Of a stretch of 64,000 nucleotides of DNA, positions 1 through 54,860 are shown in pieces (positions within the stretch are counted from its first letter, which is position 1; each line of letters begins with the position of its first letter). The notes under the pieces are model-generated. The model had not been told where the DNA came from. It saw only the letters and a program-made list of their open reading frames with translations, and did no database searches. Source of the DNA: Psammoneis japonica (taxonomy: Eukaryota); NCBI GenBank assembly GCA_008632985.1, contig QPGO01000136.1, positions 124,001 through 188,000 of the forward strand, given 5' to 3'. Position numbers and translations under genes: made by a program.

Positions 1-39
1 TTCCTGATCTGCCCAGGACAACATGATGGTGCTGTTTGC

Positions 40-1227
40 ATGGGATCACTCTCCTTCACGAGGTTGCGCTTCTCCCTCAAGGACATTGCGTGGGCCGCAC
101 TGGATTTCGGCTGTGAAACAAACAATGAAAGCCAGCAGCACTTCCTCGATGGGCCCAAGGAAGTGCAAGCAAAAGAACTCGTCAATCTTGACTGCCATTT
201 GTGCATGTCAGGAGGATGCAGTGCTCTGTCCAATGCTGAATGGATGATCACCCACATTGCCGTCATGAGTGGATCGACTGAGTGTGATCTCATGGCAGCC
301 TCAGCTAATGTGAAGAATGTCAATTCGAACGAAGCAAAGAAAGTGTGCGCTGAGTGTGGAGGGCGAATGCGTCTGGCACTTGATCATTCAAATGATGAGG
401 CGGCAATGATTTCTTGGGCTGATGGCATTGTTGCGGATCTGTCAGAGAGTGCATGTGCTTTGGCAATGATGGAGTCAGAGTCTCGAACATCTTTTGACAG
501 CAAAGACAGATTGCGGACCATGTTCAGGAGAAGCAGTGGGCGACCTCTTCAACTCGTGGATTCACAGCATTTGCTTTCAAAGCTTCGAGACCGCTTGACT
601 TTTTGTGACTTGCAAAAAGCTTGTGGAGTTGCCGAGGCACTGGATTCTCGTACGATGATGGGAGTCCTTTTTGAGGAAATCATGCACAACTGGTTTCAAC
701 GAGTCAAGCCGACCCCGGCATCCAGGGTTTTGCATTCCCCTGGGGGGGAGACAGGAAAAGCTGGTGCCGCAGACCTGTCCAAAGAGCTGGCCTGCTGGAG
801 TCCAAGTGTGCCAAACTTTGCCAATGTTGGTGCTGCGTTTGTGGACAAAGCAACCGTTCTGCATTTTTTTTGTGCCCAGTGTGCCACAAGTGACTCTCAC
901 GAGTTCAACGCCTTGACGTTTGACACGGATTTCATCCTCGAACTGAAAAAGAGCTTCGTCAAAGGATTCCAAGAGATTGTGGTGTGTTTCACAGTTCCAT
1001 CTGGGGTGATCTTTGACGTTGAGGCACATGACGCTTTTGAGTGTGACAACGACTCAACAACCTGTCGGTTTGAGGTTGTTCATTTGAAATTCAGCAATGA
1101 CAACAAAATTGGTGCATTGGCCAGCGCCTTTCCCTTCTTGTCACAGGAAAAATTCTTGGGTTGCAGAGGTGCGCACGCTGCAGGCCGTGATTGTGAATGT
1201 GCCCACAGATCTGATTGCACCAAATGA
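40..1227 (+). pseudogene. Decayed Crinkler(CRN)-like protein, C-terminal part (restriction-endonuclease-like domain); 5' end probably outside the window
   Basis: 395-aa ORF with no Tyr and excess Cys/His. Motifs MGVLFEEIMHNWF and CWSPSVPNFANVGAAFV..LHFFCAQCATSDSHEFN resemble the YWxPxxxNFxxIDA...QxTxxxxH motif of CRN-type REase domains with Y->C changes. Lies in a TpA-depleted block. Confidence 0.45.
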
Positions 1228-1299
1228 ATGTGATGATGAAGAACAGATGGCAGCTGTCCGACGCACTGACAGAAAGGCGATGGAAGGATGCAGGCTGTG

Positions 1300-3250
1300 C
1301 TGGACTGGGGACTGAGTGAGACATGGGACTGTCTTCCAATGCCCTCCCTCGAGATGGAGCCAGTTGATTCACAATGATGTGAAAAAACTTGCAAGATCTT
1401 GCAAACCTTGGAAGAAAGTGCAATGGAGCACATTCCGTCAAGATTCTGAGCTCCTGCCACAAGAACATTGCCATCGTCAGACAAACTCAAGTGACCATCA
1501 CCAAGGTCACTGGAACTGCCTCGCCTGACAACATTCTGGCCATGCTGAACCCAGCTGCTTCCATCAAGTTCGCACACTCGGACAAATGCCTGAGTCTCAA
1601 CCGCCAGCATCTGATCCAATGGCTCCAACAGCTAAATGCAGACCTGTCAGCAGAAAGTTCTATGCTGGCACCATGCCAACTTTCGAAACTCTCTCTGTCC
1701 AGGTCTTGACCGCGCTGCTTCCAACTGTTGTTGTCAAAAGTCAAAAACTTTGACCCATCCAAAACCGTTGGCACCCCAAACGATTCCGACGGCGACTCTA
1801 CGTCCAGTGGAATCAAATGCAATGGATCGACATCAAGGGCAAACTCGCCCTCCAGGTCCTTACCAAGTTGGGTCCATTGGCTTCTAAAAGGGCAAATCCG
1901 AGCATGTCCGGCGTCCAACCTTCCCTGAGGATCGCCGAGGTGGGCAGTCATGGCCATGGCATGTCCGGTGCTAGACAAAGCCACGGCCCACCCAAATTCA
2001 TTGCCAGGTGCTGTGCCATTGACAGGCGAGCCCATGTTCTCCCACTCATCTTCTTCGGGCTCCTTGAGCTCGAAAACTGGGCTTGTCCAGTTTGCTGTGC
2101 AAAGTTCCTTGCACCGACGGCGACCCTGTTGCCATCACCACTCAGGGACATGTGGTGACCAAAGCCGGAGCCTTCATCTTCACGAATTGCCGGACCAAGT
2201 TAATCCCACTGGTCGCCATTCCGCTTGCATGCAATGACGGTTTGGCCTTGGTTTGCCCCCGTTGCAATTGTGCTGCCATCGTGGGATGCCTTGACACATG
2301 CCACAAGTCGACTTCCTTCATCAATGCCTTGGATTGTCTGCATGATGGCCACTTCCGCTGGACCAAGCGGCGTGGGTGTGGGAGATGGAGTTGGCATGTC
2401 GGTTTCTTTCACCGTGCCTTTCGGTGTGGGAGATGGTGTTGGCAAGACTGTGGGGGTTGGTGTTGGTGTGTCAGTTTCTTTCATCGTACCTTTCGGTGTG
2501 GGAGATGATGGTGTTGGTGAGACTGTGTCTTCCTCCAGTGTGATTGATGATGTTGGCGTGGCGGTTGCTTCAACCGTGAGAAAGACAGTGACAGCTGATC
2601 TGCAGATTGGGTGCCAATTGCTGCACCTGCCACTGCCCCAATGGCTGCAATCAGTGCAATGATTCCAGAAGTGACGAACCACCTGCGCCTCCACAATGGA
2701 GTCTTGGCCCTCTGGTCAGTGTTTTTTCTCTCATCTGGGAGTCTGCTCTCCCTGACCAAACCCTCTTCTGCTGTGTCATCTACAGCCTGTGCAGTGACAG
2801 CTCAATGAAGCACATCTTAGACTTCTTGCCCAATTTTGCAGTGAAGCTCTTGGCCAGTTTCATTCGCCAAATCCTCATGTGTGACCGCATGTGCGACTGC
2901 AGTCTGAGGACAATCAGAGTTGGTTGAAAGGTTGTCTCGAGAGGCATCACAGAGATTGGGGCCTGCAATGGCATGAGCACCTGCTTGCGCATTAAATGAT
3001 GCATTTGCTTGCTGCGTTCTTCCATCAACGGATGAGTTGTGCTGGCCACTGACTTGAGCGCCAACCACGGAACTCCGCGGCGCTGGCAGCACGGGCCTCA
3101 GCAGCAGAGTGAGCAATGACGCACTTAAAGAACTTTCATTTTGAGGACCACGTGAGCATGGTGTCAGTCTGCTGGCCTTCTTCTTCTCTGCTTCTTTCAA
3201 AGCTTCTGTGTCGGTCTTGTCTTGTTGGCTTGCTTGACAGCGTGTGCCAC
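1300..3250 (-). pseudogene. Decayed type II membrane protein with FG-GAP/integrin-alpha-like beta-propeller repeats and a Thr/Pro linker
   Basis: Pieces in several frames: N-terminal QAGAHAIAGP, TM helix WFVTSGIIALIAAIGAVAGAAIG (about 2610-2680), TPTPSPTP repeats (2370-2530), and repeats MSLSGDGNRVAVGA, GNEFGWAVALSSTG, WTQLGKDLEGE, WKQRGQDLDRE, LSLSDDGNVLVAGA. Multiple frameshifts, no Tyr. Confidence 0.65.
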
Positions 3251-4688
3251 TCTCACATTTGGCCATGGCACATCTCTCCCTCGAAGGAGGATGCATCATC
3301 ACATTTACCCACACAATGCAATCCCATGCCTCAGCAGTGTCGGAGTTTGTGCTTTTGTTCATGGTGACAACTTCAAAGCAAAGGGCATTGAAATTCTGAG
3401 CAGAGGTGTTCATGTGATCATGAAGCCTTGTGACACAGTTTTTCCCATTGCACTCATGACAAGAGAGAGACCTCCACCTTGCACCAGTGAGACACACAAA
3501 ATTTTTTCTCTTGCTGGGTCTGCCCCGTTTCTGCACACCAACAGCAGCATCAAGCTCAGTCCACTTGCAATGGCTTTGGCAAACAACTTCTTCAGTGCCT
3601 TTTCTGCCTGCTCTTGTGCAATGCTCTCAAGAGGGTTTTGTGTGTGAGGCCAAGACTTTGTTCCTCAAAGCCCTTTTTCTTTGCACCCAGGTAGAGATCT
3701 TCTCTCACTTGTCAGCCAATGCACTCATTGAAGGTGTTTCATGCCCATTCATTTGAGTTTGTGCAAGAACCTTTGTCAAGTTGTCTGCTGGTGCACGCGC
3801 ACTTCTTGCAGAGAAAAGAGAGCTCTTTTCCTCTTCTGCTGGGAGCCTTCAATTTGCTCTCTTGTCTTCTGAGCTGCTTCTTTGCTTTTCTTTTTTTGCT
3901 TGAAATTCTTTGGCTGCGCTGCTGCTGACTGCATCTGAGAATGCTGATGAAGCCAGCAATTTCTGCCACACTGAACGAGACACAAGAGACTGCCTCACAA
4001 CCTTCAAGAGAGTCTTTGCAACATTCATTGTGTTTTGGAAAGGAGGAGGAGCCTGCCCCATTTTTGCTGGAGAGGGTTTCCTCTTCTGCTTGCTCAAAAC
4101 ACTGCTCTCTTGCCACAGGCTTGATGGTCAACAAACATGACAAAAGGCTTGAGAGTGCAAACACCAAATGCCTTTTTTGTGCATGTGGGCTGCATCCATC
4201 CTCTGCTGGTGGACTGTGCAGCATCATGCTGCCATGCCAGCACACAGGTGCCGTGTCTGCACATGAAATTTGCTTTGGTGGGGTGCAAAGCATCAACCAG
4301 GAGGCGGGGGGGTTGTGGTCTTGGCCCCGCCTCTTCTGGCATTGCGCACACAGCAGCCAAGCTCTTTCTTGGCTGACTGGGCACACCACGCTTGGCCGGA
4401 GAGCCAATGCTTTCATCCAAAGAATCTTGATCTTGGAGTTCACGTTTGGCAGGTGTTTTGAGTTGAGGAAGCACTTTGCATCTTTTGAGCTGCACATGGT
4501 TCTTCAAGCTTGCCCCCCTCTTGTCTTGCCGTTGAACACAAAAGCGCGCATGAGCGGCGAGCAACAACAACTGCGTCGCGTGAAGCGCAAAAGCAGTGGA
4601 AGTGTCTTTGTTCAGAACCGCCACTCTTTGGCAGCAGCAGTGGCAGCAGCAGCAGCATGGCATTTGCGACTGCTCATGCTGTCCAGGT

Positions 4689-4867
4689 TGCAACGACAGC
4701 ACACCGTGGTCTGTCCATCGTCAGACCAGAGCCAGAAGGAAGTGACGTAGAGAGTCCAGGAGGCTGACACCATGCCTTGACACCTTTGAACCTGGTGTCA
4801 TGTCACGAGGCTCTCTGTCCACTCACAATTCGGCAACCATCCACATTGACAACATGCCCACGTTGTG
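4689..4867 (+). repeat. 5' LTR (mutated copy)
   Basis: tgcaacgacagc...cccacgttgtg. Aligns with 14258-14447 with 10 substitutions and 4 indels. Confidence 0.95.
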
Positions 4868-4882
4868 TGGAATCCCACCCGG
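4868..4882 (+). promoter_or_regulatory. Putative primer-binding site
   Basis: TGGAATCCCACCCGG directly follows the 5' LTR and starts with TGG (complement of tRNA CCA). Cognate tRNA not identified. Confidence 0.6.
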
Positions 4883-4920
4883 TGGCAGCTGTCGAATCTG
4901 TCAGCTCTGTCTGTTGAGTG

Positions 4921-7900
4921 ATGAGCATGGTGCATGGTTGTGGCGGCCGTGGAGCCGGCAGGGTGAACCGCCCGTCGGATTTGACTTTGGATTTAGCACA
5001 AGAGCATTGGAATGATTGCACTTTCCAGGTCCCAGCAAAGCCGGACAAGTTGTCCTCCTTGAGTGTTCAGTGCCGTGAATGTTGTTTCCAACAGACTCTT
5101 TCCGGCATCTTGAGCAATGCAACAGCCGGGTCTCAGACAAAGCTTGAGATGCTGTTGAGTCACTTCGACTGTGCACATCTTCCCCAAGAAGTGAACGGTG
5201 CGTTAGAGCGTTCACATGACAACACGGCAGGCGTTGACAAGCCTGTTGTTGCCATGGAGGCGCCGGCGGGTGCATTCACACACTCCGACCCGGCAATCCA
5301 GAACGATGTCGGTGAGCGAATCAACACACCGGTTGCGGGGGCAGTGAACATGGCAGCTGTGGTGCATCGTGCGTCATGCTGCTGCACCTTCAAGTTGACG
5401 GTTGACGCATGTGCGGCCGCGCAAGATTTGGATGCGGCCACTCTTGATGAGGTCGCGTTTCCGATCCAACAATTCAACGTGGCAGTCATGATCCTGCAGG
5501 TGGTGATTAACAACCCAGCAAACCCGGATGACAGCCGCAAGGTTCTCCCACCCGGGTTCACTGCCGATGTTGTTCTCAACCCGGTGCCATTCTTGACTGC
5601 ACTCAGGATGTGCCTCGGTGGTGCGGTTCCCACCCTGGGCCAATTAGGAAGTCCAAACAGTGCCTTGCCGGCGAGCTTGGACAGTTGTCATTTCAGGTGC
5701 AGTTTCATGTGCTGCTTCCATGAATGCCGCTTCCGGCTCACGCGGTTCTCACCACGGTCGGGATTTTTGGGGGACTTGGCACGAGACTCATCCTACACTG
5801 CTGCCGCCATTCAGAACCTGAAACAAGCCCAGTTTGATCCGGCCGCTGGAGGTCATGTGGAACTGTCGGCAGAGCAATGCTGCATCAAATCTGCCGATTT
5901 GGTCAGCCTGTGCGACCTTGCGGAACGTTGCCCCATCAATTTGGCTCAAGTTTTTTGGGCCAGCTTAAAAGCGGACATCCGCCAACAAGCCAATTCTCAA
6001 GAACCTCCCCATCATGTCCCTCCTGCTCCGGCCAATGAGACCAACACTCAAGCGGATGCACGCTTGCGAGCGGCATGCACGTCTGCGACCTCTTTCGTGC
6101 GGCAATTGCAACAAATCGAAAATCAAGCGCGTCGAGTCATGCGAGCACCTGGTCGAGGCCCCACGAGGGTGTTGGAAGCACTTCCCACAGATTCAGGTGT
6201 GCCAGAAGACACTGGCTTGCCTCTTCAGGTGCAGCAGGCAGACTGGATGCCGGGCGCGTGGGAATGTGTGGCACAGGACGAAAGCAATTCGTTCGTGCAG
6301 CCTTCGGCCCCCTCGTTCATGCTCGAAGACCCTTCCACTTGTCTCAGCGCGGCTGAAACGTCTCTCCAAAATGCCACTGGGACTGTTTGCCCTCCCATGG
6401 AATGTTGGGGATGTGCAGGTCATCCACGCAACCGCGCACGCAGGTTCGAGCACACATGGAGCAGTTGCCCCTGTCGCTCCAACCCTCAAGCCCAAGCTTT
6501 GGCAAAGAAAGCTTGCACGGCATTCATCGAGGCAAGGAAAAAGCGATTGACCCATGACAGTGGGACGGCGGCCCCACCAGCCTGGTCCAATCCTCATCGG
6601 GCTCCGGCACCTCCAAATCCCCCTGCAGCGGTCATGGTCCCCAGGCCGCCGGTTCCGGCATTTGCAGCGGTGCCGCAGAACCCTGGAGAAACGGCACCCC
6701 AAGAATCTAATTGGGAGGCGCAAGGCTTCCCCTCTGATCAAGCTGCGCAATTGGCATTGGCTGTCTCTTCTCCAGCCACAACAGCAGCAACCTGCAAGGC
6801 GTGTTTCCAGGCACTGTTGAGGCTGAAGCGCCAGAAGACTGCCCAGCATCCAGCCGAGATTGAAACCTTGACGCCAGAGGCCGATCAAGATGACCAGCCA
6901 CCTGTCTGCCACCCGTTCTTCTTCCAACCAAGGGTGTGTCAAACTCTTAAAGTGGCTGTTCGAGTGTCTGATGTCAAACTCAGCACAAGTCATGTCATGC
7001 CGCACACCAGTTTCCCCATCGGTGAAAAAGGGGAGGCGGCATTGACCGTTGTGGTGGATGCATGTGGCGGGCTCAACGCAGGTCGATTGGCTCATCATTG
7101 GAGCATCATGCAGGCCAACCCGCGGTTGATCGAACATTTCGCGTGGATCAAGGACATCCCCAGTTTCGACCCCTTCAGTGTCAGCGGGTTGGAAAAAGAC
7201 TCCACCACGGAGTTCACGGCGGTGACAGTGTGCAAGACGCCATGTCAGCTCAGTGGGCGACGGGTCACCATTTCGCTTGGGTTGGTGGAGACGGCGTCAG
7301 CGAATTCATTGCTGGATCCACCGTTCATCCGGGCGTCTAATTCGGCGCTGTTGTTTGACAGTGACAAACCAGAAATCACGCTGGTGCAAAAGCTTGGCAC
7401 GGCTCTTCAGCTTCTGTGCCAAGCACCATCATGCGCAGACAAAGTCCCGTCAAACCCAGAAGGCGTCCAGGCAACATGCAAGATGACGGCGGACGGCCTT
7501 CAAGCAGTCAATGAGGCAAGGCGCGTAGACTCGCCGGAAGCTCCCACAAGGGTGATTGCGACAAGACGACCGTCTCAACCAATGTCCTTCCGCAACCACT
7601 GCTTCCAGGCTTTGCAAAATGCCATTGATCGAGCAGCCGATGCGGCAGAGACCCTGGCGACTGTAAAGGTGTGCCGCGGCATGGCGGTGTCCTCCGACAT
7701 GACAGGTTTTTTCCAGTTGCCGCGGGATCCGGCGGACGACGAGTTAGATGCAGCACTCGATTCTTCACCATGTCGAGATGCGACCTTGTGGCCGGCATCT
7801 CCGCCTTTGCACTTTGAACCAGCTTGTCATGCGGCCTTTCAGGTGGGTGGCAGTTTAGTTCTGTTTCTCCCCTCCCAGCGCCCTGACCCTGGGCGACACG

Positions 7901-7992
7901 GCTTCTATCCCAACTTGTTAGAGCAACAATCAGGACAGTGTGAGCTCGACAGCCGCAAACGCACTCATGTCCAAGCACACCAGCAAGAATGA
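4921..7992 (+). pseudogene. Gypsy gag plus aspartic protease region (degenerate)
   Basis: About 1020-aa ORF with zinc-knuckle-like CWGCAGH...HTWSSCP and protease-like VVVDACGGLNAG. Only 2 Tyr. Ends at a TGA in the same frame as the following pol ORF (8017), so it was probably once a single polyprotein (CGA->TGA). Confidence 0.75.
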
Positions 7993-8016
7993 CAGCTGCT
8001 CTCCCTGGATCCACCG

Positions 8017-11000
8017 GTGCACCACCTGTCGTCGGCATGCGTGCAAGTGTTGCCGGCATTCCAAAAAGGCCTTTGGGGACAGGCGGAGCCGTGCGCATTT
8101 TTAGTCAACCTGCAATGCAGCGCCGACCAAAGCACAGTTGCTGCCACATGTGCCGCTGCTGCACATGCCACACATCTGGATTCTTCCGATGATTCATTGT
8201 CCACATTTAAAACTGCATCAACTGCATCCATCCATTCCTTTCCTGCCTCCTCCAACAGCAATCAACTGCCACCCAGGTCCATGCATCATGAACTGGTGGA
8301 ACCGGTGGTTCCAGTTCAACCTTCGCCCAATGCGCAATGCACAGTGCGGGCAGAAAAGAAAATCTGGAGACCACGTCTACCATCTCAGTGCGTCGACCCG
8401 GGAGACTGCCCGGATGTTCTGGATGGAATGGAGGTTGTCTTCAAGCAGCACGGGTGCTCTCTGTGCCGCGCCAAGGACCCTTTGCCCCCCAGAACGGATG
8501 TTGTTTTATTTGATCTGCAAAAACATCAGGCCAAACTCAACAAAAATGTCCAATGGCATGAATGCCCAGAAGAACACAAGCCTGAGGTGACGTCTGTCAT
8601 CAAGCAACATTGGGATTGTTTCTGCGAGGAAGGGCTGCGCAAGCATGTCCGCGGATTCTCATGCCATGTTGACACCGGTGCCATCGCCCCGGTGTGCTGC
8701 AAGCCGCCACGATGTGGCCCTCACGAAGCCCAAGTCATGAACAAGCTTGTCCAACATTTGGATGATGATGGACTTGCCAAGGTGGACGACGAAAGCCCTT
8801 GGGGTGCGCTTGTGGTGTTGGCTGCAAAGCCTCATCAAGAGCATGTCCCGTGGCATGAATGCATCTGGCAGTTGTGTGCATCACACCGGAGATTGAATCA
8901 AGTGACGCGGCTGTTCGCATTTCCGGTCCCACGATGCGACGATGCGCACAAGACATCCCTCCACATGCAAAGGTTTTTCTTGCCTTCGATCTTGATTGCG
9001 GGTGTTGGCAAGTCGTGTTGGATGAATTGTCAAGAGCCAAAACGGCTTTCTTTGCGCCCACAGGCAAACGATGTTGGACCGCACTCCCAATGGGGTTCAT
9101 CAATGCACATGCCATCTTTGTGGCCATGTCCTTGGAGCTGTGAAAGATGTGGAACAAAGAAATTGCCAAGCAACACCCTCAACTGCCAGCTCAAGCACAG
9201 GCAGGTGCAATCACAAAACATCGGAACCCAGACCAATGTGGAGCCAATGTCATTGTTGACGATGCATTGATTTGGGCAGTCCACCCCAAGGCCCTGTTGA
9301 CATGCTTTCGGGGGGTCTGTGAAGTCTTGATCTTCCATTGCGTCACTTTAAAACTCAAGAAATGCAAGTTTCTGTGCCCCAGGATTGAGTTCGTCAGCGT
9401 GGATGTCCATCCCCTTGGTGACTCTCCTGCCCTTTCCAAACAGGATGCGTTCCGCAACCTCCCCTGCCCGCGGTCTTGGAGTGATTTGCGCATTTTAATT
9501 GGAGTGCATGGCTTTCATCAAAGCTGGATTTACAACTTTGAAGCAAGGATGCTGCCATTCTGCAAGCTCCAGCTCGCGGCCCCCAAGCCAGGCTCGCTCT
9601 CGCTCCCCCAAGAACAGAGCCGCTTCAAGTCGTTGTGGTTGCCAGAACATCAAGCATTGTTCGAAACACTGCAAAAGGACATGGTGTCCGATCTCATGCT
9701 GGCATGCCCTGATCATGCACGTCGGTTCTACGTGAAAACTGACTGGTTGAAGGAGGCACTGGGCACAGTCCTGTGCCAGGCGGACGAGAAGGACGTGTTG
9801 GTGTTTGATGCGGAAATGGCAGAAATCGAAGGCGGCCCGTGTTTCTTCGACTTACATTGCAAAGGCATTCACCTCCACCCCATTCAGTTCCCATCACGCA
9901 CCACCACAGATTCGGAAAAGAAGTGTCACTCCTTTGTGGGTGAGATGTCCATCCCGCAATGGGTGTTTCCAAAATGGCAGAAATGTTTGGCAGGACGAGA
10001 GTTCACTTTGCTTGCAGATGTGAACAGCATGCGGGAGTTTGTGGATCATACAGCCAACCCACCCAATGGCCAAATGCAGCGATGGCTCCAAGAGTTGATG
10101 TCATGCTCCTTTGTGTGTGAACACAGGCTGAGTGAAATGGCAACAGAATGCAACATGCTCACGCAATGTGACACCGACACAGCGTCATGGCAAGAAAAGC
10201 TCCAGGACCCATCTCCAACTCCACAAAATGTCAGCAAGGTCACCGATGTCCAAAATGACCGGAAAGGGTCATCCACTGGGGCAGAAATGTGTCTCCCATC
10301 TGTCCACGTGATGGCGGCACCACCACCCACTTTTCGGACAGGACCGGTGATGCAGGTCAGACGCAAACCTTCTTGGCAATTTGCCTCCACTCTGGCACGG
10401 ATGGCAACTCCAACCCGTGCGGTGCTTTGTCTTGGACCGGTGTTGTTTCTGCTGCAAGAGGCATGTTCGCAGGCCGCAGCTCGGCCAGATGCACAACTGA
10501 CCATTGATCAAAGCCTCAATGCAAAAGCGCACCCGGGGTTGCAGCTCATCGATGGCCCACAGTTCTTTGATGCCGTGATTCATTCATCCACCCATTTCAA
10601 ATGCATTGATTCGTTCTTCGCCCTGTGCAGAATTTTGGACCCGCAGCCAACTGCGAAACTCAACAGCACGGCTCCACACGAATGGTGCGATGAAATGACA
10701 GGGCACGTAAAAGTCCTGCAGGCGAGATTGTTCCTAAGAGCGGTGGTGCTCTTTGTCCCGGCGGTGCTGCCGAATCTTGCAAAACAAATTCGCCAAAGCC
10801 TGCCCGTCAATGGCATTAATTGGGCGATCCGGTCCTTTTGTTGTGCCAACACTAAACATGGGGGCGCCATCAGACCGATCACACGGTCATTGTCATGGTG
10901 ACCTCGGCCACAATTGGGCAACTTCATCCAGGTGACAGCACCGAGGATCCAGCGCCAATTTGTCAATCCTCAAGCCCTCCCCAGCAGCGTGTTCTGTTGC

Positions 11001-13760
11001 TGTGGAACACGAATTCTCTGCCCGGGTGGGCCGATTCATCAAGTCTCATTCGGCAACTAGACCACTGGATGGACATCCGGCCTTTTCCTCGGCATTTCCA
11101 GCTCCAAGCACAGTGTGCCCATGAAAAGAAGAGCCTTTTTATCAAGCCCTGTTCGCAATGTGGGATGAACAAGAAGCGCAGCATGTCGCCCCGTCCAGGT
11201 TCATGAGCTCCTGCGGTTGCTGGGCTTCTCAGAAGAGTCGATTGGGCCATTGCTGCTTTTGCCGGAGCAAATTCTCTTGCAAGGATTGCAGAGCACACCG
11301 GCAATCGCAGCAATTGCCCATGTGGCAGTGGCATTGTTTCATGCGGAGGCACCGTCACAACACACAGTTCCGGTCGACCCGGTGCACCCCGACACCGCCC
11401 GGTCTCCCCCGCGGGTGCCCTCGTCAGCGGCCGTTCCGTTCGACACAGTGGCAACCTTGCCTCTCCCGTTGGACAAACAATGGCGAGAAGCAACTGCAGC
11501 CGACCATGATCTAGCAGCTCTCCTGAAGGCAGCAAGGTCCAAGACAACACTGTCCAAACACAACTTTTTAGACAAGGCACACCATGCGGCCTGCTCCAAT
11601 GACCAACTGGAGGCAGACCAAGGCTTGGCATGCTGCTTTGAGTGCTCCAGGTCAGCTTGGGCACGGCAGCTTAGAGCATGAGTGGTGCGGCCCTCCCTGC
11701 GATGAGTGATCATCGCAGCGTGCCATGTGCACCCTTTTGCCGGTCACAGTGGAATCACCAGGACGCTCTGCCGCTTGCAAACCCGATTCTGGTGGCAGGG
11801 TGTGTTGCGCGACTTACACGAAGGCACATTCGCTGTCATGTGATGAACCGTGGTCGGTGGTCTTCTTAGATTTTTGGTCTCCCGGCCAAATGCCATCAAC
11901 GACAGGAGATGTCAAAGTCCTGACATGCTTGGATGGTGTGGCAAGCTTTGCCCTCGCCAATTTTTTCCAAGAGATTATTTCGGCGGAAGCTGCAGCACAT
12001 GCAGTGGCAGCCAAGTTCTTTGGTGTTGCAGGGTTGCCACGCCTCATCACAGTGGATGCAGATTCGCTCTTCATGGGTGTGTTTGTCCAGCTCTTCGAGA
12101 TCATTCGGGCCCCAGTGTTGCCGGCATCTCGCGAAAATCACCGAGCGGCACGAAATGAGCGGTTCCACCGACATTCAAATGAGGTGGCATGCATCAACAC
12201 AGCAGACATGCCATCCATGATGTTGTGGAAGCAAGCTGCACATTTTGCCTTGCATGCCTGGAACGCCTCACCGATTGACACCACTGACCTGCCCAGATCA
12301 TCAGTGGCTGTGGGACGTGAATTCCCATTTCCTCTCAACACAACGGCGCGGCCGGTGCATGACTCGGCATCCATGCCAAACCAAGCATTGGATCATTTTG
12401 AATCGATGGCACCACTCCTCTTCAAACAGAGGACACTTCTCAACATTTTAAATGAAGAACGACGGGCGAGACACATCGAATTGTGCAATGAGGGCATCAA
12501 ACAGCGGAGCTTCGCCCCAGGGGACATTGTCATCATCCGGAAGCAAGTCAAATCGGATCGAGCACGTGGCATTTCGGCTGAGCTGCTGTTTCGAGCACGA
12601 GGCCCACACACAGAGACACAGAGGAGCAGGTCGTGGATGACCCGGATGGCGAATCTGACGACGAGCTTCCCAGCGACAATGAAACCACTCCCCCATTGCT
12701 CTCTCGTGCAGTGCACCCATCAACTGCTGGGTTCTTCCGCAAACTGCACAAGCTGATGGCCGATTTGATGACCAAGGTGTTCTTCGTAGCATGTCAACCT
12801 CAAGAAGCCACGCTGCCGGTCCTGCGGATCGCGCAGGTGTGTTGGCCAGAATCCAATCCGCACCACGCGACGAGTCATGGTGTGTGTGCCATTCGGTGGT
12901 GGTGCCAGCACTTCCAAGATGCACACACCAAAGCCATGGTGGACAGTCGATTCTGGCCGAATGCGGTCAAGCAACGGGCAGACGAACCGACCGCCAGAGC
13001 ATGTGCCGGTCGACGCGTTCCAACCCCAGGTGGGACTCCGTGTGACATTGGGCCCACAGAATTCTGCATGCGAGCTCCGCAGTGCAAGAATTTAATTGAT
13101 GGATGTGTTTGTCTTCAACATCAAATAAATGGCCAAGTTTGTGGTGCAATTGTGCCTCTTGCCACTCGACGTTTTTGCAAATTCGCCTGCCCCACGCGAT
13201 TCTTAAGACATTGTAGAATCGCGCTGTAACAAAAAATGTCAAAAGTTGTTGGACGGATTGCTCAACAAGTGCACCGTAAAATGACACAAAATGTCGAAAA
13301 AATCACGTAGAAATCTACGTGCGCGACATGCGACGAGATTCAAAAAACTGTCGATGTCACAGTTCAGCAGTGCGAGGTCCCACCCAGACCTGGAGCGCGT
13401 CGGTCAACCCCAAAAAGGTGCCACGTGTGATTGCTGATGACAGGTTGACCATCAAGTGGCCAACTGTCACCTTCCCAATTGCAGAGCATTTTGCAGTCGG
13501 CCCGTTCGACTTCTCCGTGGTCAGAGCAACTCACGGTGAAAACAACAAGTCGACCAAGGAACCACACCACATCGCGGAGCCGCGCTGGGCACAACCAGAG
13601 AACAAGGCTCCTCTGTTCAACCTCGACATCTTGGACACACATCGAGTGCCTTCAGACCAGCTCAATTCTCCAGTGCCACAATTTGTGTCAACTTGCCCCC
13701 AGTGCTCAAGACATTCGGTGCAGTCTGAGGCAATTCCATGTCATGCGTTGTCGAGCTGAC
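8017..13760 (+). pseudogene. Gypsy pol (RT, RNase H, extra domain, integrase, C-terminal domain), broken by frameshifts, stops and a MITE
   Basis: RT: SPWGALVVLAAKP, HRRLNQVT, FPVPRCDDA, AFDLDCGCWQV, LPMGFINA, VIVDDALIW. RNase H: RRFYVKTDW, HSFVGE, FTLLADVNS. Integrase: ACHVHPFAGHSG..RFWW, PWSVVFLDFWSPG, LPRLITVDADS, NERFHR. C-terminal: RFWP..VPVNPKKV..VGPFDF. Confidence 0.9.
13012..13401. mobile_element. 390-bp non-autonomous TIR element (MITE) nested in the pol C-terminal region
   Basis: Imperfect TIRs GACGCGTTCCA..GGTGGGAC..TGTGACAT and ATGTCACA..GTCCCACC..TGGAGCGCGTC. 4-bp TSD GGTC (13008-13011 and 13402-13405). Removing it restores the frame PEHVPVNPKKVPRVI. Confidence 0.8.
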
Positions 13761-14242
13761 CTGCATCTTTGTGTCACTTTCCCCACGCATGCATGGGCAA
13801 CTTGCACCCAGCACACAGGGAGCAACTGTCAGTGACAGGCCAATCCTGGCATGCTCGCTCCTCCGGGGTTGCTGTTTTGGGTGCGTCGAGGTCAAGACAT
13901 CGTGACGGCACGAACGGCTCAGCACGGATGCACCGGTTTGATTCCCCCGCCATTGCCGTACGAACTGCAAAGGCCCGAACGATGCAACAGAGGAAAGGAG
14001 CTTTGTCATGACCCTCGGATCGCACGTGGGCTCCCGGGTGAGTCCCGGGCCGCACCAGGTCGGACGAGGAGCGTGTTGGCCTCTGTGCGTTTGAAATCCA
14101 CTCCCAAAGATGAGTCAGTCGTGGGTCCAGTCGTGGGTGCAATTCCATGGAGGAGGACATCCCGGCGCCCATCGCCGCCCCTCTCATAACATCCATCGGA
14201 TATTCGTGCTTTTCTCGACCCCGAGGAGCAAGGCTGTCTTAT

Positions 14243-14257: not shown

Positions 14258-14447
14258 TGTAACGACAGCACACCGTGGTCTGTCCATCGTCAGACCGGAG
14301 CGAGACGGAAGTGACGTAGGGCCCTAGCTATAGAGTCCAGGAGGCTGACAACCGTGCCTTGACACCTTCGAACCTGCGGTGTCATGTCACGAGGCTATCC
14401 ACTCACAATTCGGCAACCATCCACATTGACAACATACCCACGTTATA
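14258..14447 (+). repeat. 3' LTR (largely unmutated copy)
   Basis: tgtaacgacagc...cccacgttata. Near-inverted termini TGTAACG/CGTTATA. Retains TpA and CpG. Confidence 0.95.
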
Positions 14448-14545
14448 AGGTTGCAGAGTAGTCTGAAGCAGGGATCTCAAGCCCTCAGAAACAACAGAGT
14501 GACAGATTGACTTTGGGGTCACACAAACCACTGTACTGTAGAACC

Positions 14546-35005: not shown

Positions 35006-35739
35006 GCAGAAAAATATGCGAAATTTGTGTGACGAGCAATGCGTAGGAGCAATCAATCTTCAGCTAGCTAGATTAGTGTAGCTCGTAGAAGTAGCTAAAC
35101 GCACGATTGGAGCACTTCTCGGAGGATCAGGGGTCAGGGGTTGATGCGTTGCTTTTATCATCGTCCTTCGTCGCTCGCCGCTCATGTCTCGTGTCTCGTC
35201 GGAGGCCGTTGCGCGTGTTGCGCGCGGTCAGCGGCGGTTGGAGTGGGCAACGCAGAGGCCACACGCGAAAGAGAAACAACATGTCAGAGTTGTGTGGCCG
35301 GAGGTGTGTTCCCAAGCATTTTTCAAACTGGCTCTAAGAGGGCCCAACTAGCTACAGTAGAAGTAGCACGGCAAGTGGATTTTGATTAACAGCGTTTGAA
35401 ACACAGTTTCTGGATGCATGCAGACAGTGCAGAGAGGGCCAGCTCTGAAGGTGCGAGATGATGGCGCGCACCAACACTGCTGCAATGTTTCTTTTGGCAT
35501 GTGCCCTTGGCACAGAGCAAGATGGCACCCCCAAGGGAAGCAAGCCAGTGAAACAATTTGAGTGCTGTTGTGTTGTTCTGGCTGAGGCAACAAAAAGCTT
35601 CAAAGAGACTCACTCAATCAGCCAGAAACAACAACCGCGTCCCCCAAATCTTGTGCTCTCACACACCGCACAGTTCTGGAATGAACAGCTTTCTCTTTCT
35701 GGGCACACAAAACTCATTTGAGTTGGTCTTGCAGAGCAG

Positions 35740-36200
35740 TTGCCTCCATTTTGTGAGCAGTGCCAAAAGTTGTCATGATGGACCCATGTGTGGCCGATGT
35801 TTTTCCAGCAAAAAAAATGATTTCCTGCTGTCCCAGCAGCCAATCTTTGTGGGCAGGGCCAAAATGTCTTTCCCCCCAGCCAGTGCTTCAAAAGGAGTGG
35901 GACATGCAGGCAAACATGAGGTGCTGCCATCTGGAAAAATCAAATGCTTCTTTGAAGGTTCTGGCATGTTTTCTCCAAACCTGATTGCTTTTTAATTTCT
36001 TCAGTGTGGTGGTCACCTCCCTCACCCAAGAGAAAAGAGCAAACTTGCCCCCACCTCCAATCCAGAGATCATTGAAAACATGGCCCACTTGCTGGATCTC
36101 ATCTTTCCCCCACAAGGCTGCCAGCTTGTCATGGTCACTTTGTTGAAATGAGCTTTGTCCCAGCACAATGTGCGCCCATTCACAACACCAAAGCCAGCTG
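35740..36200 (-). pseudogene. Decayed partial paralog of the neighbouring flavin amine oxidase gene (C-terminal part)
   Basis: Aligns with about 39730-40250, e.g. tttgtcccagcacaatgtgcgcccattcacaacaccaaagcc versus tttgtcccagtagaatatgcacttgttcagaacgccaaagcc. The translation keeps AGFGVVN and FNDLWIGGGGKFALFSWV. Confidence 0.85.
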
Positions 36201-39200
36201 TGTTGAGCCACAGCAATCAACAGCACATTGCATCTTGTGAGCTGACACATGGGAGAATCAACATGTGAGAGTGTGATGGGCCAATTGTTGACTTTTTTGG
36301 CTGAAAAGCAATGGGCAAACAATTGAGTGTTTCAGCTGTTTTTCTGCAATCAAATGATTTCACAAAGCACAGCAAGGCATGGTGGGTGGAACAACACTTC
36401 TCTGCAGATTCCCTTTTCCATCATTGCAAGGCCACTTTTGCAGGATTGGGAGGAAGCACACTCCAAGCAGTGCATCTTCCCTGCTTGGCAGTGATTTGTT
36501 GGTGCCGTGATGCTGAACTAAAAAGCACTGGTCCATCCCAGACATTCGAGCTGCAGAAGTGTTTGGGAGAGCGCAAATCCACCAGTGATGTGGTGTCAAA
36601 GTCTTTGCAAGCCATTCTTTTGTTGGGCAGTGCCAGCCAATGCAACTGGCACATTGCTGTTGCAGGGTTGAATCAACAGTGCAGTCATCTTGACATCATG
36701 GAAAACAAGAGTGTGGCTTGAACAGAGTGATGCAAGAGAAGAAAGCTGCTTTCTAAAGCTGCAGCACATTGATCACATTGTTGTGATCTCAAGACAACAG
36801 GTGGATTTGTTGTGAATGTCTTGGTGCTTGCCAGAGAGATGTCAACAAATGAAAAGATTTCATTGAAGCTGCACAATGTCAGCCAACAAGCACTGTCATG
36901 ATGGAGATGCAAAATTGCTGACAAAATTTGCCAATGCACTTGTGGCTGTGTGGTGCATCAGAGTGCGCATTCCAGTGATCGAGACCTGCTTTCTCCTGGT
37001 GATTTTTTCCCAATCATTGTGTGAACAATTGACCTGTGAAACCTTGCCAGTTGTGCACCTGGCAACAATTTTTCAAATGTCAATGACAAAAATCTTTTTC
37101 CTGTGAAGCCCCGCTGTTCACTGTCAGAAGAAAACATTTCGCTGTGAAACAGCAACACACGGTTTCCCTGTGAGAACGCCTCCTGTGCCCTCTTTTCCTG
37201 CAGAACTTGACAATTGGCAGTGAATGGATTTTTCCTGTGTTTGGCAGAGATTCCAGGAGTTGAGTGCAATTTACACAGCGCATTTGACTCAATGTTTGTC
37301 AATGAACAAACAATTTCAGCTGTGCTGGGTCATGAAGTTTGTCAAGGAACACTGCTGCACTGCTTTGCTGCTGGCATTTCTTCCACCCACTGTGCCATGC
37401 TTTGGACCATTGCCAGATCTGCATTGCTTCTTGATCATCCTCATCCTTGTGCCCATCACTGTCTTCTTTTTCCTCTTCTTTGTCGTTGTTCTGCCACTCC
37501 ATTTTCTCTTCCTCGTCTTCCTTGTCATTGCTGGAAAGTTCTGTTGTTGCTTGTGTTCTTGTTCCTGATTCTGATGGTTCACTCACACTCTTCTCACAGA
37601 TTCCCTTGGCATTGTCTTCTGTCAACACAACTGCAGTGAACAAGCATTGTGTCAGCCGTGCCACAATCAACACCTTCTTGTTGTTGCTTCCTGCAGCGTT
37701 CACCTCTCAATGCATTCTTCCATGTTGTCTGGGCAACGGTGTGTTCCTCTTCATGTTGATGCATTGAAGATGCACGTTTTTGCCCAGGCTTTCGACAATT
37801 CTGCCCTCACCCACAAATGCGAGTCAAGTGCCTTCAGGCAGGTGGTGCCCTTTCTGCTGTGCTCTTGTTGGGCACATGTTTTCACTGCAAAAATGCTGAC
37901 ATCTCTGGCACCCTGCTTGCCACAGTGTGTTGTGCATGGGCAGCAGGTGACATGGCACTTTGGCATGCCCACATTGACCCCAAACACCATCTGTCTCTTG
38001 GGCTGCTGGCAATTTAATGAGATGCTGCACTGCCTTGTTGGTCTTCAGGAAGAGCCAGACATGCGACACTTTGCACACAACATGCTTCCTCACAGCAACT
38101 TTTGGCTCAACTCTGATGTCTTGTTTGCTCCATCTAACCCTGAGGTTGACTGGCTCATCCTTGCCACAGCTCCCCAGCCCCCTCTCCATTCCCAATGTTG
38201 TCAAGAGCTTTTGTGCACTGTGCACATGAGTGGCATGGCAGCCATGTCACACCACCTTGGGAATGGGAGAGATGGTTGGCACTGACACTGCAGTGAACCT
38301 CCACCACTCCAAATGTCAGTCTGCTTTTCTTGCTGCTGCTGCACCAGAGGATTGCTGCAAGAGGATGAACGTGCAAAGTGCTGATGGCACAGCCACTGGC
38401 ATCACATGAAGATGACAAGGGAGATTTCTCATGACCCATTGTGTGTGAGCCATCTTTCCCCCAAATCAAATGTGAGTGCACCCACTGAGAACAAGTGGCT
38501 GTTTTGTGTTTCATCAGCTGCTTTTGTTTGTCATCATGATGAAAAGTCAGTGGCAAGCCTGAGAGACAGCCTGATGACTCCCACCTCTCATCCTGCCCCA
38601 ACTGGCCATGCTGCGCCAGCTTGGGAGTGGCAGATGGTCAGCACCAGTGCTGGCAAACCTCTCCCAGCCCAGTTGTTGCCCTCCTGCTGCTGCGTCAGAT
38701 CACTGCAAAAGGATGAATGGGAATCAAAATGATGGCAGTCTCATCAGGCAAATGTCACACTCCAGATTCAGGCCAGAGGCAAATTCTTCTGCCTGAAAGA
38801 GAGAATGAGAACAAGGCTCATTTTCAGCTCTCTTTTTGCACCATTGTTGCCCTTTCTGCCACCAGTGCTGGGATTTGCCAGCACTCCCTTTGTGCAAATT
38901 GGAGCTGAGAACAGAAAACAAAAAATCTGGCTTCACCACAAGCCAGGCAGGAGCACGTGTGCACAGTCAAAATTCTGCATGGTGGCTGTGTGAGAGAAAG
39001 ATTGTTGGCAACACAACCTCTGCTTGGTCAGTGTGTGAAAAACTTGTTCCTCTCTCCCCAACATGTTTTTCTCTGCACATGCACAGAGAGCACCTGTTTG
39101 CATGTTCTTGCAACAAGTGAGAAAAAAGATTTTTTTAACAAAAGTCTCTTGTGGAAGAAAAAAGCTTGCAACACAACAACAGCCACCATGGTGATGAGTT

Positions 39201-39368
39201 CTTAAGTTTGCACAAGTTTGTTCAGTGCGTGTGTTTGTGTGTTGCACTTCTCCCCCAAATGATGCTCAATTGTTGCTGAGTTCGCAGGTGCCCCCGCTTG
39301 GTGCACAGTGCTCTCATTCCCTGCCTGGCAGGGGCTGCACTGCATCAAGAAGAGAGCTGAAAAGACAG

Positions 39369-39369
<1 letters not shown>

Positions 39370-39417
<48 letters not shown>
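39370..39417. repeat. (TG)24 microsatellite
   Basis: Perfect TG run. Confidence 0.95.
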
Positions 39418-39418
<1 letters not shown>

Positions 39419-39685
39419 AATGCAGGCACCACAGATCACATTGGAACATGTTCTGGTGAAACACTTGCTGAGGGGGGCGAGCAGAGTCAGTCACTGTCAG
39501 TTGTGTGCTCCTTGGAGCAAAGGGGGAAATGGCACTAGTGGGTTGTGTCAGCCATTTGAGGTGTTCTGTTACATTTAGGCTTTAGCACTTTTCACGATGC
39601 AATGAGGCGATTGGATAAGAAGGCAGGCAAGACATCCATGTGAGATTTAGGAGACATCTCTCTCCTGCCGCATTTGCTTTGGCCT

Positions 39686-54430: not shown

Positions 54431-54724
54431 GATGATGTTCGATTCAATTTGGGAAAACTGTGAGCATTGTAAGAGGTGAGCTCTATGTACAATAGAGAGA
54501 GAGAGCGTGATGGCCGAATCACTCTCGAGGCACGGACCGAATCGTCGATCTTCGTGTGCGAAATCTATGGCTGATCTGTGCTTGGTTTGAGTCACGCATG
54601 TTTTTTGTTCATCCGCGACTGACGTCAAGAATCACACGCGACTTAGAGCAGAATCATCGACACAATTCTGGCAGCATCAAAACTGTTGTTCGAAGATAGA
54701 GTCTTGGCCATGCTGCGATCCTCC

Positions 54725-54860
54725 ATCTGAAAGAAACATTGATGCAAGTGCTGGTGAACAATCAACTCTCAACTCTTTTGGTCTGCTCCACCACCCAGCC
54801 ACACACCGGGTGGACCATGAGGGTCGAAACAAAATGTGCAACATGACTGGTCCAGCCAAA
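54725..54860 (-). pseudogene. Decayed paralogous copy of the about 53930-54060 segment
   Basis: gaaacattgatgcaagtgctggtgaacaatcaactctcaactctttt...ccatgaggg...aaaatgtgcaaca versus gaacattactacgagcgctaatgaaaaatcaactctcaactctttt...ccataaggc...aaaatgtacaaca. Confidence 0.8.

What the first reader, a model, noticed from the sequence alone, without database searches (positions are those of the whole stretch)
4921..7992. Sequence context of the mutator: the target is TAY (RTA on the other strand) and survivors are YTAR
Seen: of about 15 TpA left in gag, 11 are TTAG, TTAA or CTAA. In 35370-39540 nearly all of about 10 survivors are TTAA, CTAA or CTAG. YTAR is the only context with a TAY on neither strand, and all five LTR changes fit TAY->TGY or RTA->RCA. 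Established: bacterial TadA deaminates the A in U-A-C-G of tRNA, TadA-derived base editors favour T-A contexts, and polymerase eta makes A->G at WA during non-canonical mismatch repair. Inference: two candidate mechanisms are a DNA-acting TadA/ADAT-like adenine deaminase, or error-prone patch repair triggered by T:G mismatches in CpG-methylated DNA. The 3'-pyrimidine preference and the survival of poly-A runs lean towards a deaminase-like specificity.
Basis: partly seen in the sequence, partly recalled or inferred. Interest (0 to 1): 0.8.

Follow-up and report, generated by a model that had tools for sequence, protein, structure and literature searches.

The report
TpA-erasing mutator in diatom repeats
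Silent stretches of this diatom genome, including a retrotransposon and a dead gene copy, have had nearly every TA step rewritten to TG or CA, with TTAA spared, which looks like a second case of a DNA-editing genome defence so far reported only in one unrelated alga.

Summary
The window is nuclear DNA of a raphid pennate diatom. Four sharp-edged blocks (1-14200, 35400-39450, 41800-43400, 54700-56800) keep 87 TpA in 22 kb, against 1527 in the other 42 kb.

- **Survivors:** 49 of 87 are YTAR, against 15% outside the blocks and 17% in 48 unmutated relatives of the element (p about 1e-16).
- **Direction of change:** comparison with paralogues and with homologous proteins shows real DNA-level TA->TG/CA change. 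28 of 34 aligned TA sites are now TG or CA. Of 27 conserved Tyr codons, 19 are now Cys or His.
- **Flank rule:** it is graded, not Y against R. Loss follows the flank in the order T > C > G >> A. CTAG is not protected.
- **Strand rule:** polarised events do not support the reading that TAY gives TGY and RTA gives RCA.
- **Rival mechanisms:** AA->AG is not raised, so polymerase eta is disfavoured. An adenine deaminase cannot be told apart from thymine oxidation.

The closest known case is TpA hypermutation of integrated viruses in Bigelowiella natans (2026 preprint). My literature searches found no report for diatoms.

The parts
1..4685 (.). Left part of block B1. Low-copy DNA of unknown kind, TpA-depleted and partly CpG-depleted.
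   Evidence: TA is kept at 0.094 and CG at 0.518 of outside density. None of 22 ORFs gave a Pfam family above noise. Contig depth is 66-142 against about 57 in unique DNA.
4689..4870 (+). 5' LTR of a Ty3/gypsy-type element, mutated.
   Evidence: It aligns to 14258-14450 at 84.5% over 200 columns. 5 of the 6 TA in the 3' copy are TG (4) or CA (1) here.
4918..7992 (+). ORF1 (gag-like, 1024 codons); this is the finding's span.
   Evidence: It is homologous to ORF1 of relatives (L001 residues 34-854 on 5005-7473, 26% identity). It has 15 TA and 0.2% Tyr. Stops by frame are 1, 33 and 31.
8320..10871 (+). Reverse transcriptase and RNase H, with a frameshift near 8940.
   Evidence: tblastn of homologues covers it in two frames. 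Pfam finds RT_RNaseH in 9147-10901. Conserved Tyr is replaced by Cys or His.
11172..12609 (+). Integrase region, no longer recognised by Pfam.
   Evidence: It aligns to L005 pol residues 1133-1629, which carry Integrase_H2C2 and rve. The window's own ORFs there give no Pfam family.
13050..13400 (.). Very high-copy short repeat inserted in the element. It still holds TA.
   Evidence: Summed contig depth is about 1e5, with 58 to 104 contigs counted at the variant places listed there. It holds 8 TA, of which 5 are RTAR.
14258..14450 (+). 3' LTR, not mutated. It lies just outside the block edge, is preceded by a polypurine tract and is followed by a gene.
   Evidence: It lies in the 200-base bins from 14200 and from 14400, which hold 9 and 6 TA. 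The flank AAGAAAAAGGAGGGA stands before TGTAAC. A zf-MYND gene lies at 15135-16130.
35400..39450 (.). Block B2, stripped of both TpA and CpG.
   Evidence: TA is kept at 0.054 and CG at 0.142. The edges are sharp at 200-base resolution.
35785..36207 (-). Pseudogene fragment of the neighbouring amine-oxidase gene, inside B2.
   Evidence: tblastn of the gene's ORFs gives 42-46% identity. The DNA alignment 35500-36206 against 39504-40252 shows TA->TG 9 and TA->CA 2.
39595..40739 (-). Intact amine-oxidase gene (its ORFs continue to about 41740), with ordinary composition, lying between B2 and B3.
   Evidence: Pfam Amino_oxidase, E = 5e-20 and 4.5e-12. It has 42-46 TA per kb.
41800..43400 (.). Block B3.
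   Evidence: TA is kept at 0.155 and CG at 0.212. Edges are shown.
54700..56800 (.). Block B4. It holds mutated copies of 19155-19483 (at 55211-55532, reversed) and of 53934-54065 (at 54731-54862).
   Evidence: TA is kept at 0.052 and CG at 0.242.

Best explanation
A DNA-level process confined to particular regions converts the T:A pairs of TpA steps to C:G, so TA becomes TG or CA. It acts in silent, CpG-methylated-looking stretches of this diatom genome. These include a Ty3/gypsy retrotransposon, a dead copy of a host gene and further unidentified DNA. Neighbouring genes are untouched, with edges sharper than 200 bases.

Shown:
- The direction and dinucleotide specificity of the change.
- That it happened after integration.
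- That products appear on both strands.
- That it runs well ahead of CpG decay.
- That each flank adds its own share to the loss rate. For the base 3' of the A (equivalently the complement 5' of the T), the order is T > C > G >> A. RTAY therefore goes first and TTAA is almost immune.
- That the change cannot create stop codons. Reading frames stay open while Tyr codons turn into Cys or His codons.

Inferred: this is enzymatic base editing aimed at silenced chromatin. The chemistry I favour, at about 0.4, is deamination of adenine to hypoxanthine in DNA by a polynucleotide deaminase that needs a 5' T. Hypoxanthine is then copied as G. Which of the two base pairs mutates is not predicted by the flanks in my polarised data.
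For: Composition: TpA o/e is 0.02-0.16 in every 1-kb window of the blocks against 0.38-0.73 elsewhere. TG and CA rise to 1.3-2.0. Pooled o/e inside is TG 1.66 and CA 1.65.

Direction, from paralogues: 34 TA in unmutated copies align to TG 22, CA 6, other 5 and TA 1 in the block copies. That is 97% changed, against 75% for CG and 24-49% for the other 14 dinucleotides.

Direction, from proteins:
- Of 27 columns where 48 relatives conserve Tyr, the element keeps 1. It has Cys 10, His 9, Trp 1, Phe 3, Ala 2 and Arg 1. Phe, Trp and Cys are kept at 69-71%.
- Of 150 replacements explained by exactly one transition, 27 of 46 A>G have a 5' T and 19 of 25 T>C have a 3' A. Per site this is 12-20 times the other contexts.

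After integration: the 5' LTR has lost 5 of the 6 TA kept by the 3' LTR.

Not only transposons: B2 holds a fragment of the adjacent amine-oxidase gene.

Faster than CpG decay: in the gypsy element TA is kept at 0.152 and CG at 0.951 of outside density.

Flank rule: the additive half-site fit gives X2 of 10.0-14.7 on 12 df and a likelihood-ratio statistic of 119-126 against a flat model. It beats a multiplicative model by 3.7-5.1 log-likelihood units.

Precedent: mutation-accumulation lines of Bigelowiella natans gave 230 of 231 mutations as A>G or T>C in two integrated viral regions, all at TpA (bioRxiv 10.64898/2026.01.13.699255; Results and Discussion read).
Against: - No enzyme, modified base or de novo event was observed. 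Everything is inferred from one 64-kb window.
- The reference for 'starting' TpA counts is a proxy (outside DNA or relatives at 40-59% identity).
- Flank context cannot tell a change starting at A from one starting at the paired T.
- The additive fit suggests one flank governs one base pair. Yet pooled polarised events show no link between flank class and product (YTAY TG 10: CA 4, RTAR TG 12: CA 6). Composition-based product splits point the other way (Y_Y 0.85-0.94 TG, R_R 0.24-0.62) but do not balance against the losses, so I do not trust them.
- Natural ADAT substrates, as I recall them, never have U after the edited A. Here TAT is the best target.
- None of 74 related metagenome loci shows a 1-kb window with TpA o/e below 0.25.
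Confidence: 0.6

Rival explanations
1. Thymine, not adenine, is the modified base. A TET/JBP-type dioxygenase marks T in TpA of silenced DNA as 5hmU, oxidised further to 5fU. This occasionally pairs with G, giving T->C.
For: It gives the same base-pair change and the same flank data, read on the partner strand (5' A > G > C >> T). In dinoflagellates a TET/JBP homologue makes 5hmU, the mark is enriched in repeats and silences transposons, and older work found T replaced preferentially in TA and TC (PMC11572971, passages read).
Against: The mutagenicity of 5hmU or 5fU toward T->C is recalled, not tested here. No TC depletion is seen inside the blocks beyond a ratio of 0.87. No such enzyme or base is known to me in diatoms.
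Confidence: 0.2
2. Error-prone patch repair (non-canonical mismatch repair with polymerase eta) is triggered by T:G mismatches from deaminated 5mC in methylated DNA.
For: The blocks look CpG-methylated. CpG o/e is 0.52 inside against 1.01 outside. In the 18 of 19 listed differences between the window and the same sample's contig over 4826-13048, every site involves a CpG in one version.
Against: Polymerase eta's WA rule (recalled) predicts AA->AG too. AA o/e is not lowered (1.24 against 1.16), and inferred A>G events are 5 at AA against 27 at TA, on about 2.5 times more AA sites. In the gypsy element TpA is 85% gone while CpG is at 95% of outside density, so the supposed trigger is far rarer than its effect.
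Confidence: 0.07
3. The retrotransposon's RNA was hyper-edited (A-to-I) before reverse transcription, so the copy arrived already mutated.
For: The sense strand of the element shows somewhat more TG than CA products: 27 against 19 codon-based events and 4 against 1 in the LTR.
Against: The two LTRs, identical at integration, differ at TA sites. CA products are abundant. A host pseudogene fragment and DNA with no recognisable transposon protein are mutated in the same way. The block edge falls inside the element, before its 3' LTR.
Confidence: 0.03
4. No mutator is involved. These sequences are TpA-poor by selection or by origin, for example avoidance of a TA-cutting nuclease or foreign codon usage.
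For: TpA is under-represented genome-wide (o/e 0.55 outside the blocks).
Against: - 48 relatives of the element have TpA o/e 0.48-0.92.
- Conserved Tyr is replaced in a frameshifted pol.
- One copy of each paralogue pair is depleted and the other is not.
- Outside the blocks YTAR is the rarest class (15%), the opposite of what is left inside.
Confidence: 0.03

Closest known systems
TpA hypermutation of integrated viral DNA in Bigelowiella natans (Mettrop et al., bioRxiv 10.64898/2026.01.13.699255)
   Same: A:T->G:C at TpA giving TpG/CpA. It is confined to discrete regions of invading DNA next to ordinary genes. The genome shows clusters of TpA-poor, CpA+TpG-rich 1-kb windows enriched in reverse-transcriptase and DDE domains. 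It is interpreted there as a genome defence.
   Different: - That case is a rhizarian alga; this is a diatom (stramenopile).
- There the rate was measured directly and the regions are far from saturated (TpA rho 0.45). Here the blocks are near saturation (o/e 0.02-0.16) and nothing was measured over time.
- The main text there gives no flank context beyond TpA (0 occurrences of 'context', 'flanking' or 'trinucleotide').
- Here a host pseudogene fragment is also hit.
Repeat-induced point mutation (RIP) of fungi
   Same: A permanent transition-type scrambling of transposons at one dinucleotide, with sharp regional limits.
   Different: - The direction is the mirror image. RIP makes TpA from CpA/TpG, while this process destroys TpA and makes CpA/TpG.
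- RIP creates stop codons and this process cannot.
- RIP hits both copies of a duplication. Here one copy of each pair is hit, and the element is single-copy at 80% likeness by contig depth.
Deamination decay of methylated CpG
   Same: It has the same products (TpG/CpA) and operates in the same blocks.
   Different: It acts on C in CpG, not on TpA, and is much slower here. It is a second process in the same DNA, not the explanation.
5hmU marking of transposons by TET/JBP enzymes in dinoflagellates (PMC11572971)
   Same: A base modification aimed at repeats in a related (SAR) lineage, with an old report of preference for T in TA.
   Different: It is an epigenetic mark with no reported mutational footprint. 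It is not known in diatoms. The link to T->C is my inference.
TadA/ADAT tRNA adenosine deaminases and TadA-derived adenine base editors
   Same: They deaminate an A preceded by U/T. The bacterial TadA site is U-A-C-G (recalled).
   Different: They act on tRNA, or on DNA only after engineering. Eukaryotic ADAT sites, as I recall them, have G, A or C after the A and never U, while TAT is the best target here and TAA the worst.

Membership tests
TpA-targeted regional hypermutation (Bigelowiella natans type) | Changes are A:T->G:C transitions. | tested here: met
   28 of 34 aligned TA are TG or CA in the block copy. 19 of 27 conserved Tyr are now Cys or His.
TpA-targeted regional hypermutation (Bigelowiella natans type) | The changes fall on TpA and not on other A or T. 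| tested here: met
   46 of 71 inferred A>G or T>C events are at TA, the rarest dinucleotide. Per site this is 0.062-0.087 against 0.003-0.013 elsewhere. It is not exclusive, as expected for an old element that also carries ordinary mutations.
TpA-targeted regional hypermutation (Bigelowiella natans type) | Runs of at least three 1-kb windows with TpA rho <= 0.43 and CpA+TpG rho >= 1.52 (the preprint's cluster rule). | tested here: met
   In windows 1-13000 and 36001-39000, TA o/e is 0.02-0.16 and the mean of the TG and CA o/e is 1.42-1.92, at or above 1.52 in most of them.
TpA-targeted regional hypermutation (Bigelowiella natans type) | The targets are invading or mobile DNA next to normally evolving genes. 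| tested here: met
   A gypsy element lies beside zf-MYND, desaturase, cullin and FBPase genes of ordinary composition. In addition, a host pseudogene fragment is hit.
TpA-targeted regional hypermutation (Bigelowiella natans type) | A de novo rate about 1000 times background, measured in mutation-accumulation lines. | not testable with these tools
   Only contigs of one sample were available. Differences there are of CpG type, and no TA<->TG difference stands alone.
Fungal RIP | C:G->T:A at CpA, raising TpA. | tested here: not met
   The direction is the opposite.
Fungal RIP | Both copies of a duplicated sequence are mutated. | tested here: not met
   In all 4 pairs, one inside a block and one outside, only the block copy has lost TA.
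ADAR-type RNA hyper-editing fixed by reverse transcription | One-stranded A>G acquired before integration. | tested here: not met
   TG o/e is 1.66 and CA o/e 1.65 inside. The LTRs differ at TA sites.
Polymerase eta WA->WG mutagenesis | AA is mutated as well as TA. | tested here: not met
   AA o/e is 1.24 inside against 1.16 outside. There are 5 AA events against 27 TA events.
TadA/ADAT-like DNA adenine deaminase | A CDA-fold polynucleotide deaminase that acts on these regions. | not testable with these tools
   No genome is held for the window. No deaminase domain was found among the 105 ORFs scanned.
TadA/ADAT-like DNA adenine deaminase | A 5' T and a 3' context like U-A-C-G. | tested here: inconclusive
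   The 5' T requirement fits. The 3' order T > C > G >> A includes C but puts T first, and it could equally describe the partner T.
Ty3/gypsy LTR retrotransposon (the carrier of the finding's span) | Two LTRs, a polypurine tract, and the order ORF1 - RT - RNase H - integrase. | tested here: met
   LTR pair; PPT; RT/RNase H; integrase region by homology to relatives with Integrase_H2C2 and rve.

The most novel reading that the evidence does not exclude
Diatoms and chlorarachniophytes share an old, chromatin-guided DNA base-editing defence that is the mirror image of fungal RIP. An enzyme reads T-A followed by anything but A and rewrites the pair to C:G in silenced DNA. This destroys Tyr codons and regulatory TA-rich motifs but never makes stop codons. 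The flank rule found here (T > C > G >> A, TTAA immune) would then be the enzyme's fingerprint. It should reappear in the 231 de novo Bigelowiella mutations.
Probability: 0.3. Interest if true: 0.85.

Novelty: new member of a known kind. Interest (0 to 1): 0.66.

Why it matters
Directed hypermutation as a genome defence was textbook only for fungi (RIP) and for animal APOBEC/ADAR systems. A TpA-specific form was reported in 2026 for one rhizarian alga.

Finding the same footprint at saturation in a diatom would place it in a second major lineage of an ecologically dominant group. It would also show that it acts on retrotransposons and dead host genes, not only on integrated viruses.

The flank hierarchy gives a concrete biochemical fingerprint for testing candidate enzymes. 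It also gives a simple genome-scan statistic, the YTAR share of surviving TpA.

There is a practical warning too. Such blocks carry long open frames with no Tyr, which gene finders and domain models misread.

Tried and rejected
- **Whole genome:** none is held. There is therefore no proteome search for deaminases, TET/JBP enzymes or Y-family polymerases, and no genome-wide tetramer count.
- **Earlier notes of this scan:** nothing on this genome or this topic.
- **Sequencing runs:** 3 rows from one sample and study; no RNA holder listed.
- **Laying contigs on 1-20000:** this gave allelic or assembly differences of CpG type only. 207 further difference rows were not shown to me.
- **Related loci:** 74 from metagenomes, none TpA-depleted. 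The search patterns included a Tyr, which disfavours mutated copies. The scan of viral contigs gave no relative among 135 pattern matches.
- **Pfam on 84 ORFs of the blocks and flanks:** only the amine-oxidase gene and weak chance-level rows. tblastn of 197 ORFs of relatives found nothing in the window outside the gypsy element.
- **Terminal repeats at the edges of B1a and B2-B4:** none convincing.
- **Product split by flank from composition:** rejected as a test. The excess of TG+CA does not balance the TA+CG losses, so the baselines are off.
- **Strict TAY/RTA rule:** tested on polarised events and not upheld.
- **The long ORF1 as a sign of selection:** rejected. TA->TG/CA cannot create an in-frame stop (TAA->TGA is stop to stop), so an open frame stays open.
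- **Atlas look-up of ORF 1-1224:** this pointed to RHSP/Crinkler-like clusters (score 0.97). It is an untested lead only.
- **Literature:** four full-text searches for a diatom report and the P. tricornutum mutation-accumulation paper (PMC6604790, passages) gave none.
Full report
**What the window is.** A delta-6-type front-end desaturase gene (32137-33612) is 80% identical to that of Fistulifera solaris and 77% to that of Phaeodactylum tricornutum. Cullin, FBPase, lipase and permease genes lie in long uninterrupted frames. This is nuclear DNA of a raphid pennate diatom. No whole genome is held for it.

**The blocks.** Per-kilobase dinucleotide counts show four stretches where TpA almost vanishes (o/e 0.02-0.16) and TpG and CpA rise to 1.3-2.0. 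They are 1-14200, 35400-39450, 41800-43400 and 54700-56800. The rest of the window has TpA o/e 0.38-0.73 and CpG near 1.
- At 200-base resolution the edges are abrupt.
- Pooled, TA o/e is 0.07 inside and 0.55 outside, and CG is 0.52 against 1.01. TG is 1.66 and CA 1.65 inside. The other 12 dinucleotides change by at most 20%.

**What the blocks contain.**
- 4689-14450 is a Ty3/gypsy-type element. It has two LTRs of about 190 bases (84.5% alike) and a polypurine tract before the 3' LTR.
- It carries ORF1 (the finding's 'gag'), RT and RNase H with a frameshift near 8940, and an integrase region.
- Contig depth of the same sample (about 54.5, the same as unique DNA) shows the element is single-copy at 80% likeness.
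- Block 35400-39450 holds, at 35785-36207 on the minus strand, a fragment of the amine-oxidase gene. The intact copy lies next door at 39595-40739 and has normal composition.
- Block 54700-56800 holds mutated copies of 19155-19483 and of 53934-54065.
- The remaining block DNA gave no domain hits.

**Is it mutation, and in which direction?**
- In the four pairs with one copy outside and one inside a block, 34 TA of the outside copy align without gaps. The block copy has TG 22, CA 6, other 5 and TA 1. CG is changed in 75% of cases and the other dinucleotides in 24-49%.
- Against 48 unmutated relatives fetched from metagenomes (40-59% protein identity, TpA o/e 0.48-0.92) there are 1071 columns with a conserved residue. 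Of the 27 conserved Tyr, 1 is kept and the rest are Cys 10, His 9, Trp 1, Phe 3, Ala 2 and Arg 1. Phe, Trp and Cys are kept at 69-71%. A first pass with 6 homologues gave 1 kept of 11.
- 150 replacements are explained by exactly one transition. A>G has 46 events (5' neighbour T 27, G 9, A 5, C 5) and T>C has 25 (3' neighbour A 19). G>A has 45, of which 28 are in CpG. C>T has 34, of which 15 are in CpG.
- Scaled to the dinucleotide make-up of the relatives, TA is hit 12-20 times more per site than any other A or T context.
- The 5' LTR has lost 5 of the 6 TA that the 3' LTR keeps. The change therefore came after integration and at the DNA level.

**The claim under test: context.**
- 4921-7992 has 15 TpA, of which 11 are TTAG, TTAA or CTAA.
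- 35370-39540 has 10 TpA, of which 9 are YTAR.
- Over all blocks, 49 of 87 survivors are YTAR. Outside the figure is 234 of 1527. In the unmutated relatives it is 1728 of 10,066 (Fisher p = 3.4e-17 and 2.9e-16). The refutation condition, that starting composition explains the excess, is therefore not met.
- Newly created TpA cannot explain it either, because only 22.6% of TG+CA in the blocks have Y..R flanks.
- Leaving out a young high-copy insert (13050-13400) gives 47 of 79.

**The rule is graded.**
- Survival is TTAA 0.86, CTAA 0.56 and TTAG 0.39. CTAG is only 0.088, the mixed classes 0.07-0.09 and RTAY 0.019.
- I fitted a model in which each flank adds its own rate, r(base 3' of the A) + r(complement of the base 5' of the T). 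It fits all 16 tetramers: X2 is 10.0 or 14.7 on 12 df, depending on the reference.
- The fitted rates are T 2.7-3.0, C 1.5-1.6, G 0.9-1.0 and A 0.02-0.08. The model beats a flat model by 2dlnL = 119-126 and a multiplicative model by 3.7-5.1 log units.

Polarised events do not bear this out.
- In the pairs, 15 changes fit the rule and 12 do not; 10 of those 12 are TAR->TGR. Another 4 are other changes and 1 is kept.
- Pooled with codon-based events, YTAY gives TG 10: CA 4 and RTAR gives TG 12: CA 6 (Fisher p = 1.0).
- Tyr codons are the only class in which both products are detectable. With a 5' pyrimidine they give CA 3: TG 1, and with a 5' purine TG 10: CA 6.
Their gains and losses do not balance, so I set them aside.
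- The flanks clearly set how fast a site is lost. Which base pair changes remains open.

- AA->AG is not raised. AA o/e is 1.24 inside against 1.16 outside, and A/T runs are equally frequent.
- There are 5 AA events against 27 TA events.
- TpA loss also runs far ahead of CpG loss. In the gypsy element TA is kept at 0.152 and CG at 0.951, while in the older blocks both are low.
- Together these disfavour patch repair triggered by CpG deamination.
- The blocks do look methylated. The 18 listed of 19 differences between the window and the same sample's contig over 4826-13048, and 3 of 3 over 2763-4721, all involve a CpG in one version. The unmutated 14406-20000 shows 2 differences.

**A consequence.** TA->TG/CA cannot create an in-frame stop. 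ORF1 therefore has 1 stop in its frame against 33 and 31 in the other two frames. Block ORFs are long, with 0-0.3% Tyr and 3-6% each of Cys and His. Pfam no longer recognises the RT core or the integrase, although it does in relatives.

**Comparison with what is known.**
- A 2026 preprint on Bigelowiella natans reports 230 of 231 de novo mutations in two integrated viral regions as A>G or T>C, all at TpA. It also reports 124 TpA-poor clusters genome-wide and proposes an ADAT2-like DNA deaminase. Its text gives no flank context and does not mention diatoms.
- Four full-text searches and the P. tricornutum mutation-accumulation paper gave no diatom report.
- Among 154 homologues of the RT/RNase H, median Tyr is 2.8%. 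Three are below 1%. Two of these, from metagenome sources, show RFCLKTDW or RFHLKTDW where the others have RFYLKTDW. Similarly mutated copies therefore probably exist elsewhere.
- A thymine-oxidation route is a serious rival, because TET/JBP-made 5hmU marks and silences repeats in dinoflagellates.

**Verdict.**
- The phenomenon is a new member of a recently described kind, with a new and quantitative flank rule.

Noticed in passing
window 13050-13400: A short repeat of very high copy number lies inside the gypsy element. Summed contig depth is about 1e5, against about 55 for unique DNA, with 58 to 104 contigs counted at the variant places listed there. It still holds 8 TpA, including GTAG and GTAA, so it probably inserted after most of the hypermutation. 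A 51-base piece recurs at 42290-42342.
   Followed up: partly
window 39595-41740 (minus strand), between blocks 35400-39450 and 41800-43400: An intact amine-oxidase gene of ordinary composition sits between two hypermutated blocks. The block edges lie within about 150 bases of its coding ends, and a dead fragment of the gene lies in the left block. Targeting therefore follows something like chromatin or expression state rather than sequence identity.
   Followed up: partly
window 2763-13048: The listed differences between the window and the same sample's short contigs in the block (21 of the 22 reported) all involve a CpG in one version. One adjacent double change TG<->CA points to an ancestral CG. 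Either the alleles differ by methyl-CpG decay, or the assembly miscalls methylated CpG.
   Followed up: partly
proteins P0266 and P0191 (metagenome sources): Two environmental homologues of the RT/RNase H have 0% and 0.4% Tyr, and Cys or His at conserved Tyr positions. They look like hypermutated copies from other assemblies. Their DNA could not be fetched.
   Followed up: partly
window 14258-14450: The 3' LTR escaped the mutator although the 5' LTR did not. It directly adjoins the start region of the next gene (ORFs 14462-16130, zf-MYND).
   Followed up: no
window 1-1224 (+): A 408-codon open frame runs off the window's start inside the depleted block. A language-model look-up places it nearest RHSP/Crinkler-like eukaryotic clusters (score 0.97). 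Pfam finds no support.
   Followed up: no
window 17305-17816, 28885-29151, 51164-51457: Tandem duplications of about 257, 129 and 150 bases (84-89% alike) lie in ordinary-composition DNA.
   Followed up: no
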